Positions 20,118-20,845 of a stretch of 64,000 nucleotides of DNA are shown in pieces (position 1 is the stretch's first letter; each line of letters opens with the position of its first letter). The stretch is from Escherichia coli (GTDB taxonomy: Bacteria > Pseudomonadota > Gammaproteobacteria > Enterobacterales > Enterobacteriaceae), in assembly GCF_024298765.1 (NCBI RefSeq), contig NZ_CP101210.1, one strand, 5' to 3'. The notes beneath the pieces were generated by a model, which saw only the letters and a program-made list of their open reading frames with translations, made no database searches and was not told the DNA's origin. The translations under genes and the position numbers were made by a program.

Positions 20118-20507
20118 ATGATGTTTCTGAAACAGGGCACGTTTAATTATGAAAAGCAGTCCGTGGTGCTCAGTGAGCTGTCCGGGCTGCAGAGAATTGA
20201 ATATCTGGCGTTTGTTCAGCAGCGAACGGCAAAGTTTGATGCCGAAGAGGGAGAACTGCCGGAGGCTGAACGACAGATTGCTTTTCTGCGGATGGGGATG
20301 GATATCAATGCCTGGCTGGTTTCCCGCTCACTGTGGAATGCGGAACAGTCTCAGGATGTTGAGACGCTTTGCGCATCCGTTATTACAACATGGTCGTATG
20401 ATGCCCTGGGAGCGGGGGCGGAGATGGTTCTGTCGCTGAGCGGTATGGGAGCCATTGAGAATGCCGGGGATTTGGAGCATGAGGTGCTGACGCCGGAAAA
20501 GTCCTGA
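20118..20507 (+). CDS. tail assembly chaperone gpG-like
   Basis: ORF directly upstream of the tape measure gene, with a -1 frame extension (see next feature). Confidence 0.7.
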   Translation: MMFLKQGTFNYEKQSVVLSELSGLQRIEYLAFVQQRTAKFDAEEGELPEAERQIAFLRMGMDINAWLVSRSLWNAEQSQDVETLCASVITTWSYDALGAGAEMVLSLSGMGAIENAGDLEHEVLTPEKS

Positions 20508-20845
20508 CGCGGGAAATGCAGTTTGTCATGCGGCTTGCCCGGGAGTTCCGGCGGGCAGACTGGCGGCGGATGCTGTCGGAAATGTCGGCCACTGAGCTTG
20601 GTGAGTGGGGCGATTATTTCCGGATGCAGAGCTTCAGTGATGTGTGGATGGATGCGCAGTTTGCCTCGCTGAAGGCATTGATCGTGAGAATGGTGTCCGG
20701 TAGCAGTGATGCTGCGGTGGCTGATTTCAGCCTTTTACCGGAAGAGAACGGGATACCGGAGCGAACGGACGAAGAACTGATGCATCTTGGGGAAGGTATT
20801 TCCGGAGGTGTGCGTTATGGACCAGATAGCCAACCTGGTCATTGA
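20495..20845 (+). CDS. gpT-like -1 frame extension of gpG (product of programmed frameshift, G-T fusion)
   Basis: The -1 frame is open from about 20495 and encodes ...REFRRADWRRMLSEMSATE..., similar to lambda T; candidate slip site G-GAA-AAG at 20495-20501, just before the G stop at 20505-20507. Confidence 0.6.
   Translation, partial: GKVLTREMQFVMRLAREFRRADWRRMLSEMSATELGEWGDYFRMQSFSDVWMDAQFASLKALIVRMVSGSSDAAVADFSLLPEENGIPERTDEELMHLGEGISGGVRYGPDSQPGH

What the first reader, a model, noticed from the sequence alone, without database searches (positions are those of the whole stretch)
20490..20520. gpG/gpGT programmed -1 frameshift site with a non-canonical slippery heptamer
Seen in sequence: the G frame ends at TGA 20505-20507 and the -1 frame is open from about 20495, encoding a lambda T-like sequence; the only candidate slip site is G-GAA-AAG (20495-20501) rather than lambda's G-GGA-AAG. 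Established knowledge: tail assembly chaperone frameshifting is conserved in long-tailed phages.
Basis: partly seen in the sequence, partly recalled or inferred. Interest (0 to 1): 0.4.

Follow-up and report, generated by a model that had tools for sequence, protein, structure and literature searches.

The report
Known phage tail chaperone frameshift site
This is the ordinary lambda-type G/GT tail-chaperone -1 frameshift of a very common E. coli prophage; its "odd" slip sequence GGAAAAG is the usual one in this branch of lambda-like phages and was already annotated as such in phage N15.

Summary
A gpG homolog (20121-20507, PF06894) ends at TGA 20505-07. A lambda T-like domain (PF06223) lies in the -1 frame, which is open from 20483 to 20845. 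The only shift-prone sequence in the 25-nt overlap is G_GAA_AAG (20495-20501).

The interpretation, programmed -1 frameshifting to make gpGT, is well supported by comparison:
- In 143 related loci (22 lineages below 75% gpG identity) a slip motif always sits exactly 42 nt before the T motif.
- A_AAR is invariant, and heptamer base 1 equals base 2 in 22/22 lineages.
- Third-codon-position variability switches from the 0 frame to the -1 frame at the heptamer.
- 9/22 lineages have no start codon for T.

The heptamer breaks the X_XXY_YYZ rule, because tRNA-Glu must re-pair GAA->GGA with a middle G.U. It is not unusual, though. It is the commonest motif in my sample (34/45 contexts), which was biased towards the query's relatives, and occurs in phi80, Gifsy-1/-2 and Fels-1. 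The N15 GenBank record marks it as the "slippery sequence".

The locus is 99.9% identical to phage Ayreon and present in 1847/5426 complete E. coli genomes. I found no conserved downstream RNA structure. An upstream Shine-Dalgarno-like GAGGTG is only suggestive.

Verdict: real, correctly read, already known, low interest. No frameshift efficiency was measured here.

The parts
20121..20507 (+). gpG homolog, tail assembly chaperone, 128 aa, 0 frame; stop TGA 20505-07 (an alternative ATG lies at 20118)
   Evidence: PF06894 Phage_TAC_2 E=1.7e-39. Translation. PGAP and phage records annotate the same CDS as 'phage tail assembly chaperone G'.
20495..20501 (+). Slip site G_GAA_AAG: P-site codon GAA (Glu), A-site codon AAG (Lys); -1 frame reads GGA AAA
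   Evidence: Only shift-prone motif in the overlap. Invariant across loci with gpG identity down to 57%. The same heptamer is annotated as the slippery sequence in N15. It lies exactly 42 nt before the T motif in 143/143 loci.
20483..20507 (+). Overlap in which both the 0 frame (G) and the -1 frame (T) are open; the shift must occur here
   Evidence: Stop map of the three frames: -1 frame stop at 20480, 0 frame stop at 20505.
20501..20845 (+). T segment in the -1 frame, from GTC 20501-03 to TGA 20843-45. Predicted gpGT = 20121..20501 joined to 20501..20845, 241 aa, junction ...LTPEK|VLTREMQF...
   Evidence: PF06223 Phage_tail_T E=5.1e-15. Fusion translation. -1 frame codon periodicity starts right after the heptamer.
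20481..20486 (+). Shine-Dalgarno-like GAGGTG, 8-9 nt upstream of the heptamer; possible 5' stimulator (unproven)
   Evidence: Anti-SD duplex -9.2 kcal/mol, own-gene empirical p=0.07. Fisher p about 9e-4 over 15 GGAAAAG lineages, which are not truly independent. Absent in phi80, N15 and PSTCR8lys.
20081..20104 (+). Intrinsic terminator-like hairpin plus T-run between the major tail gene V and G (context: sets expression of G/GT/H relative to V)
   Evidence: Scan. Annotated as a terminator at the same place in Ayreon, mEp460 and N15.
19317..20060 (+). Major tail protein gpV homolog (context: upstream neighbour that defines the locus)
   Evidence: PF16461 lambda tail tube protein E=6e-67 plus Big_2. 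CDS limits as in Ayreon and mEp460.
20817..23882 (+). Tape measure protein gpH homolog (context: downstream neighbour; its start overlaps the end of T)
   Evidence: PF06791, PF09718 and PF24622. The start position comes from the homologous annotation.

Best explanation
A small fraction of ribosomes translating the gpG chaperone gene slip back one nucleotide on G_GAA_AAG (20495-20501). At that point tRNA-Glu is on GAA in the P site and tRNA-Lys is on AAG in the A site. tRNA-Lys re-pairs perfectly with AAA. This is the A_AAG slip for which the single E. coli tRNA-Lys is notorious. tRNA-Glu (anticodon 3'-CUU-5') re-pairs with GGA through G:C, a middle G.U, and A:U.

Translation then continues in the -1 frame from GTC 20501. 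It bypasses TGA 20505 and adds the 114-residue T segment, giving a 241-aa gpGT fusion (...LTPEK-VLTREMQF...). By analogy with lambda, abundant gpG and rare gpGT coat the tape measure protein, and the T domain recruits the major tail protein. Neither ends up in the virion.

Shown here: ORF geometry, domain identities, and the conservation and frame-switch signatures. Inferred: that slippage occurs, that both tRNAs slip, the efficiency, and the role in assembly.
For: 1. Synteny is fully lambda-like: Z, U, V, G, T, H, M, L.
2. G matches PF06894 and the -1 ORF matches PF06223.
3. CCGGAAAAG plus the nearby stop is invariant while gpG identity falls to 57%.
4. In 143 loci, 45 unique contexts and 22 lineages, the motif is always 42 nt before AREFxRxDWR. 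A_AAR is invariant, and heptamer base 1 equals base 2 in 22/22 lineages although it is a third codon position of Pro, Ala, Leu or Ser. That argues that P-site re-pairing is selected.
5. Third-position variability switches frame at the heptamer. Upstream entropy is 1.82 at the 0-frame third position against 1.46 and 1.53. From +6 it is 1.32 at the -1-frame third position against 0.83 and 0.75.
6. 9/22 lineages have no ATG, GTG or TTG in the T frame before the T motif.
7. At the aligned position lambda/434 has G_GGA_AAG with a joined GT CDS, and Stx2_95 has A_AAA_AAG.
8. N15 annotates GGAAAAG as the slippery sequence, and the Gifsy-1/-2 records call T 'part of ... by translational frameshifting'.
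9. A_AA.G is by far the most shift-prone tetramer in E. coli (PMC4066793).
10. tRNA-Glu re-pairing GAA->GGA via G.U has been proposed for about 1000 actinophage chaperone sites with GGGGGAA (PMC10885494).
Against: No direct evidence of the fusion protein exists for this phage group.

In a reconstituted E. coli system, G_GAA_AAG was used as the 'less slippery' control and gave mainly 0-frame product (PMC6924986). Bare Z_ZZN tetramers are barely shifty without a stimulator: about 0.15% against 0.11% background (PMC4066793). I found no conserved downstream stimulatory structure. How a useful level is reached is therefore unexplained, although lambda needs only about 1 GT per 30 G (PMC5009743).

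An ATG at 20516 exists, and public annotation uses it as an independent T start.
Confidence: 0.88

Rival explanations
1. Same frameshift and same product, but mechanistically a single-tRNA slip. Only A-site tRNA-Lys moves from AAG to AAA on the A_AAG tetramer, or the incoming tRNA pairs directly in the -1 frame, and P-site tRNA-Glu does not meaningfully re-pair. Efficiency would come from a 5' Shine-Dalgarno-like stimulator (GAGGTG 20481-86), as in dnaX or B. subtilis cdd (CGA_AAG).
For: A_AAR is the only fully invariant part. P-site codons vary (GAA, GGA, AAA, GCA), and GCA->GGC can re-pair only at the first base. SD-like sequences are enriched 6-9 nt upstream: mean -4.8 against -2.05 kcal/mol, Fisher p about 9e-4. 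Peng et al. treat GAA->GGA as a second-position mismatch. The cdd site CGA_AAG is a published precedent, taken from a reference title.
Against: Heptamer base 1 is G (equal to base 2) in all 21 G-starting lineages even though it is a synonymous third position. That is expected only if the P-site tRNA's first-position pairing in the -1 frame matters. The SD-like element is absent in phi80, N15 and PSTCR8lys, which use the same heptamer. The enrichment could also reflect the Glu/Asp-rich tail of gpG and shared ancestry.
Confidence: 0.3
2. T is made as a separate protein from ATG 20516 (as annotated by PGAP and most phage records), for example by termination-reinitiation after TGA 20505. No fusion would be needed.
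For: ATG 20516 lies 8 nt after the G stop, and GGGAA sits just upstream. All public records of this phage group annotate separate G and T CDSs. The exact fusion sequence is absent from a 15-billion-protein collection, while G and T are each on 1000 or more contigs.
Against: The ATG at +21 is present in only 5/22 lineages, and 9/22 have no start codon at all before the T motif. The five -1 frame codons between the heptamer and that ATG already show protein-coding periodicity and conserved residues (K-[VA]-[LFA]-x-x-E). The GGGAA is only 2 nt from the ATG, which is poor spacing. From memory of Levin et al. 1993, no free gpT is made in lambda. Absence of an annotated fusion reflects annotation pipelines, not biology.
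Confidence: 0.05
3. The -1 change is made at the RNA level: RNA polymerase slips on the A-run, producing mRNAs with one A fewer or two As more.
For: The site contains A4. Related sites have A5-A6 (GGAAAAA, AAAAAAG).
Against: Transcriptional slippage in bacteria is described for runs of about 9 A or T (PMC5009743), and a run of 4 A is far too short. The frame-specific conservation of base 1 and of the codon phase of the motif is what ribosomal slippage predicts, not polymerase slippage.
Confidence: 0.02

Closest known systems
Bacteriophage lambda G/GT tail assembly chaperone frameshift (Levin, Hendrix & Casjens 1993; Xu, Hendrix & Duda 2004, 2013, 2014, as cited in PMC5009743)
   Same: Same gene order (V-G-T-H). 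Homologous G (PF06894) and T (PF06223) domains. T lies in the -1 frame and overlaps the end of G. The slip site is at the aligned position with the same A-site AAG Lys codon. No conserved 3' stimulator was found.
   Different: The P-site codon is GAA (Glu) instead of GGA (Gly), so -1 re-pairing has a middle G.U instead of being cognate. The G stop follows one codon after the heptamer, against five codons in lambda. gpG is only about 34% identical.
Phage N15 genes 14/15 (also phi80, mEp043, Gifsy-1, Gifsy-2, Fels-1)
   Same: Identical heptamer G_GAA_AAG at the homologous position. The N15 record explicitly annotates it as the 'slippery sequence for -1 translational frameshift', and the Gifsy records describe T as made by frameshifting.
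   Different: The preceding codon is GCG in N15, phi80 and mEp043, against CCG here (as in Gifsy/Fels). N15 and phi80 lack the upstream SD-like sequence, and their G stop is five codons downstream of the heptamer.
E. coli dnaX -1 frameshift (A_AAA_AAG with 5' SD-like and 3' hairpin stimulators)
   Same: The same A-site slip of the single E. coli tRNA-Lys from AAG to AAA. A possible SD-like element lies 8-9 nt upstream; I recall the dnaX spacing as about 10 nt.
   Different: The P-site codon is not cognate after the slip. There is no 3' hairpin. The expected efficiency is a few percent, not 50%. The product is extended rather than truncated.
Actinobacteriophage tail chaperone sites with GGGGGAA ('fivetwo' motif, PRFect, PMC10885494)
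   Same: A tail chaperone frameshift in which tRNA-Glu reading GAA is proposed to re-pair with GGA through a G.U pair.
   Different: There GAA is the second (A-site) codon and the hosts are high-GC Actinobacteria. Here GAA is the P-site codon and A_AAG supplies the A-site slip.
B. subtilis cdd -1 frameshift at CGA_AAG (Mejlhede et al. 1999; reference title seen in PMC5009743)
   Same: An A_AAG tetramer with a P-site codon that cannot re-pair cognately. I recall an upstream SD-like stimulator there, but did not check it.
   Different: A cellular gene in a different organism, with no tail chaperone context. I could not read the details here.

Membership tests
Lambda-type tail assembly chaperone G/GT programmed -1 frameshift | Two same-strand ORFs lying between the major tail (tube) protein gene and the tape measure protein gene | tested here: met
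   V 19317-20060 (PF16461), G 20121-20507, T frame 20483-20845, H 20817-23882 (PF06791/PF09718).
Lambda-type tail assembly chaperone G/GT programmed -1 frameshift | The upstream ORF is a gpG homolog | tested here: met
   PF06894 E=1.7e-39, 134.9 bits against a cutoff of 27. It aligns with lambda, N15 and phi80 G.
Lambda-type tail assembly chaperone G/GT programmed -1 frameshift | The downstream ORF is in the -1 frame, overlaps the 3' end of G, and carries the T domain | tested here: met
   Frame map. PF06223 E=5.1e-15.
Lambda-type tail assembly chaperone G/GT programmed -1 frameshift | A shift-prone sequence in the overlap, in the right phase, conserved among homologs | tested here: met
   G_GAA_AAG contains A_AAG. 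It is invariant in the clade and always 42 nt before the T motif. Base 1 equals base 2 in 22/22 lineages.
Lambda-type tail assembly chaperone G/GT programmed -1 frameshift | T has no conserved initiation signal of its own, and coding constraint changes frame at the slip site | tested here: met
   9/22 lineages have no start codon before the T motif. The entropy periodicity switches at the heptamer.
Lambda-type tail assembly chaperone G/GT programmed -1 frameshift | A G-T fusion protein is made at a low fixed ratio to G (about 1:30 in lambda) and is required for tail assembly | not testable with these tools
   Needs expression, mass spectrometry or genetics. The ratio is quoted from PMC5009743.
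Canonical tandem-slippage heptamer X_XXY_YYZ | Positions 1-3 are identical and positions 4-6 are identical, so both tRNAs keep two cognate non-wobble pairs after the -1 shift | tested here: not met
   G_GAA_AAG has position 3 = A, not G. tRNA-Glu would face GGA with a second-position G.U (PMC6924986).
dnaX-type stimulated -1 frameshift | SD-like sequence about 10 nt 5' of the slip site | tested here: inconclusive
   GAGGTG 20481-86 gives -9.2 kcal/mol with own-gene p=0.07. Lineage-combined p is about 9e-4, but the lineages are related and the element is missing in phi80, N15 and PSTCR8lys.
dnaX-type stimulated -1 frameshift | Stable, conserved stem-loop or pseudoknot 5-9 nt 3' of the slip site | tested here: not met
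   Local MFE z-scores are -0.45 to +0.9 around and after the site. The RNAalifold consensus over 22 lineages is -1.57 kcal/mol, with 4 pairs about 60 nt downstream of the heptamer and no covariation.

The most novel reading that the evidence does not exclude
G_GAA_AAG is treated in ribosome biochemistry as a poorly slippery control, yet it is the naturally selected slip site in at least 15 diverged lambda-like lineages. In vivo it may therefore reach lambda-like efficiency through tolerated P-site G.U re-pairing. In the cdtI/mEp460/Gifsy clade it may also be helped by an upstream SD-like stimulator at roughly dnaX-like spacing (as I recall it) and by a stop codon one codon downstream. Together with the sister motifs G_GCA_AAA_TAG and G_GAA_AAA_TAG, this family would give a natural allelic series for measuring how much P-site mismatch a bacterial -1 frameshift tolerates.
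Probability: 0.3. Interest if true: 0.35.

Novelty: already known. Interest (0 to 1): 0.17.

Why it matters
It matters mainly for annotation. This exact G-T region is in about a third of complete E. coli genomes (1847/5426). Even so, neither possible junction version of the GT fusion is present in a 15-billion-protein collection, and RefSeq and phage records list G and T as separate genes. The real assembly protein of a very common prophage tail is therefore systematically missing from databases. Tools that look only for X_XXY_YYZ, such as the enterobacterial screen in PMC4066793, will miss this whole clade.

Scientifically it is a reminder that natural -1 sites tolerate a near-cognate P-site re-pairing. 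It does not open a new question.

Tried and rejected
- Other slip sites in the overlap: none. Codon-by-codon inspection found no other Z_ZZN or X_XXY_YYZ.
- Downstream stimulatory structure: single-sequence folds and shuffled z-scores and RNAalifold on 22 lineages show nothing conserved. A small hairpin UCCUG-ACG-CGGGA (20502-14) abuts the heptamer, is too close to act, and is broken in Gifsy-2 and others (listing).
- Rfam gathering scan of the window: nothing at the locus.
- Literature on GGAAAAG: a full-text search for 'GGAAAAG' plus 'frameshift' gave only irrelevant hits. 'G GAA AAG' led to Peng et al. 2019, where it serves as a less-slippery control. Xu et al. 2004 (Mol Cell) is not held, so I could not check whether it lists or tests this heptamer. 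A search for N15/phi80 frameshift papers gave nothing relevant.
- Exact look-up of the predicted fusion with two junction versions: not in the collection.
- Independent T initiation and transcriptional slippage: considered and rejected as main routes (see rivals).
- The SD-like stimulator remains only a suggestion, because of shared ancestry, the acidic-tail composition and its absence in some lineages.
- My first translation was out of frame by one base and was discarded.

Full report
**What is in the sequence.**
- Window 20121-20507 (+) encodes a 128-aa protein, MFLKQGTF...LTPEKS. It matches Pfam PF06894, 'Bacteriophage lambda tail assembly chaperone, TAC, protein G' (E=1.7e-39).
- The -1 frame has its last upstream stop at TGA 20480-82. 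It is therefore open from 20483, not about 20495, and runs to TGA 20843-45.
- That frame reads GADAGKVLTREMQFVMRLAREFRRADWRR... and matches PF06223, 'Minor tail protein T' (E=5e-15).
- The neighbours are a lambda-type tail tube protein (19317-20060, PF16461) and a tape measure protein (20817-23882, PF06791/PF09718).
- Further out lie gpZ, gpU, gpM and gpL homologs, a cement protein and a ClpP-capsid fusion.
- The 25-nt overlap is GGTGCTGACGCCGGAAAAGTCCTGA. Read in the 0 frame, its only shift-prone element is A_AAG (20498-20501), embedded in G_GAA_AAG (20495-20501). There is no canonical X_XXY_YYZ.

**Where it comes from.**
- The 751-bp G-T region is 99.9% identical to Escherichia phage Ayreon and 97.6-99.7% identical to mEp460, cdtI, Tritos, phi458 and others.
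- It is present, mostly at 95% identity or more, in 1847 of 5426 complete E. coli genomes, including O157:H7.
- None of the records I inspected (Ayreon, mEp460, Tritos and a RefSeq/PGAP chromosome) joins G and T. They list 'tail assembly chaperone G' and 'tail assembly protein T' separately, with T started at ATG 20516 or further downstream.
- Neither junction version of the predicted fusion is in a 15-billion-protein collection. G and T are each seen on 1000 or more contigs.

**Is it more than chance?**
- The bare heptamer is not. GGAAAAG occurs 14 times in the window against 8.9 +/- 3.1 expected. The comparative picture is what carries weight.
- I collected 62 IMG/VR loci with the fusion as query, 80 with a profile of nine diverse GT proteins, and reference phages.
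- In the close clade, CCGGAAAAG[TC]C[CA]TGA (TCC, CCC, or TCA in one context) is invariant while gpG identity falls to 57% and the flanking codons change.
- The survey covers 143 loci, 45 unique contexts and 22 lineages below 75% gpG identity. Across all of them:
  - The motif lies exactly 42 nt before the T motif AREFxRxDWR in every case.
  - The alignment from -15 to +105 is gapless.
  - A_AAR is invariant.
  - The motifs are GGAAAAG (34 contexts), GGCAAAA (7), GGGAAAG (2), AAAAAAG (1) and GGAAAAA (1). The sample is biased towards relatives of the query.
  - Heptamer base 1 equals base 2 in 22/22 lineages, even though base 1 is the synonymous third position of a Pro, Ala, Leu or Ser codon.
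- Column entropy is highest at the 0-frame third codon position upstream of the heptamer (1.82 against 1.46 and 1.53).
- From +6 onward it is highest at the -1-frame third position (1.32 against 0.83 and 0.75 for +6..+41). Protein-coding constraint therefore changes frame at the heptamer.
- Nine of the 22 lineages have no ATG, GTG or TTG in the T frame before the T motif. The ATG used by annotators here (20516) exists in only five lineages.
- Together these are the expected signatures of an obligatory -1 frameshift at this site.

**Comparison with lambda and others.**
- At the aligned position, lambda-type tails (phage 434 record, with a joined GT CDS) and an Stx2a phage have GCG_GGA_AAG.
- Stx2_95 has TCA_AAA_AAG.
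- phi80, mEp043 and Kp4865-4 have GCG_GAA_AAG.
- Gifsy-1, Gifsy-2 and Fels-1 have CCG_GAA_AAG.
- PSTCR8lys has CTG_GAA_AAG_TAG.
- The GenBank record of N15 carries a misc_feature 'slippery sequence for -1 translational frameshift' at exactly GGAAAAG. The Gifsy-1 and Gifsy-2 records describe T as part of a frameshift hybrid.
- The 'non-canonical' heptamer is therefore prior art and is the commonest form in my query-biased sample of this branch.

**Mechanism.**
- Established knowledge: E. coli has a single tRNA-Lys that pairs better with AAA than with AAG. A_AA.G is by far the best -1 tetramer, giving up to 5.6% with a pseudoknot but only about 0.15% alone. G_GG.A_AA.G and A_AA.A_AA.G are among the best heptamers (PMC4066793; PMC5009743).
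- On G_GAA_AAG the A-site slip is ideal. The P-site tRNA-Glu would face GGA, pairing as G:C, G.U, A:U.
- Peng et al. call this a second-position mismatch. They used G_GAA_AAG as their 'less slippery' mRNA, which gave mainly 0-frame product in vitro (PMC6924986).
- The same GAA->GGA re-pairing via G.U has been proposed for about 1000 actinophage chaperone sites with GGGGGAA (PMC10885494).
- Because base 1 of the heptamer is conserved as G, I favour a two-tRNA slip with near-cognate P-site re-pairing (about 0.55-0.6 given that frameshifting occurs). The alternative is a pure A-site slip (about 0.3).
- Lambda needs only about 1 GT per 30 G (PMC5009743), so a weak site may be enough.

**Stimulators.**
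- I found no 3' structure. Local MFE z-scores range from -0.45 to +0.9. The 22-lineage RNAalifold consensus is -1.57 kcal/mol with no covariation.
- Upstream, the window has GAGGTG at 20481-86, 8-9 nt before the heptamer.
- Across unique contexts the mean anti-SD duplex energy peaks at -4.8 kcal/mol for 9-nt windows ending 6-9 nt upstream, against a background of -2.05.
- Own-gene empirical p is 0.07 for this lineage. Fisher combination over 15 GGAAAAG lineages gives about 9e-4.
- The lineages are related and the region encodes an acidic tail rich in GAG/GAN. phi80, N15 and PSTCR8lys lack any such element. I treat this as suggestive only.

**Rivals.**
- Independent translation of T from ATG 20516 is contradicted by the lack of a conserved start and by -1-frame coding constraint upstream of that ATG.
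- Transcriptional slippage is implausible on a run of 4 A, since runs of about 9 are described.
- A decayed, non-functional locus is unlikely here, because both ORFs are intact and identical to those of the deposited phage genomes Ayreon and mEp460.

**Verdict.** The finding is real and correctly interpreted, but it is a known recoding event with a known slip-site variant in a very common prophage. Novelty: already known. Its practical value is for annotation, because the GT fusion is missing from databases. Its modest scientific interest is as a natural example of tolerated P-site mismatch. No efficiency or protein evidence could be obtained here.

Noticed in passing
L131-L133, L138, L139, L141, L142, L144 (junction about 1596-1605 in each locus); L134: Sister lineages carry CTG_GCA_AAA_TAG or CTG_GAA_AAA_TAG at the homologous position. 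The A-site codon is AAA, the G stop codon follows immediately, and P-site GCA could re-pair with GGC only at its first base. This departs further from the canonical rule than the finding itself, and may work as a P-site slip next to a stop codon.
   Followed up: partly
window 20081-20104 (+): A strong intrinsic terminator-like hairpin (7 G-C pairs) plus T-run lies between the major tail gene V and G. It is annotated as a terminator at the same place in Ayreon, mEp460 and N15. It presumably lowers G/GT/H expression relative to V by partial termination.
   Followed up: partly
window 20121-20845; RefSeq NZ_CP033605.1 916773-917497 (L157): Annotation gap. The same G-T region is in 1847/5426 complete E. 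coli genomes, but G and T are annotated as separate CDSs. The predicted 241-aa fusion (either junction) is absent from a 15-billion-protein collection.
   Followed up: yes
L004, L030-L032, L035/L094, L065: Some related prophage copies look decayed or rearranged. The T frame is cut to 37 or 62 codons (L004, L030-32). G is cut to 18 codons with a 517-617-codon ORF in the T frame, possibly a T-H fusion or deletion (L035/L094). In L065 G is joined to unrelated downstream sequence.
   Followed up: no
window 15420-17639 (+): A single long ORF combines a ClpP-type protease domain (PF00574, residues 95-255) with a phage major capsid domain (PF25209, residues 441-736). It is a protease-capsid fusion gene, followed by a cement protein (17681-18049).
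   Followed up: partly
window 2254-2428, 5723-6146, 8625-9011, 33724-33922, 44848-45061 (all +): Rfam gathering-level hits elsewhere in the window: sok antitoxin RNA, two cspA thermoregulator leaders, IS009 and STnc560. These point to typical E. coli prophage and chromosomal cargo around the tail module. No tRNA genes are in the window.
   Followed up: no
window 20481-20482 and 20491 (offsets -14/-13 and -4 from the heptamer): Besides the heptamer, 'GA' at -14/-13 (93% and 87%) and 'C' at -4 (98%) are unusually conserved across the 45 unique contexts. They are first/second codon positions (an Asp/Glu codon and a Thr/Ser/Pro/Ala codon). This may be protein constraint on the gpG tail, or part of the frameshift context.
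   Followed up: no
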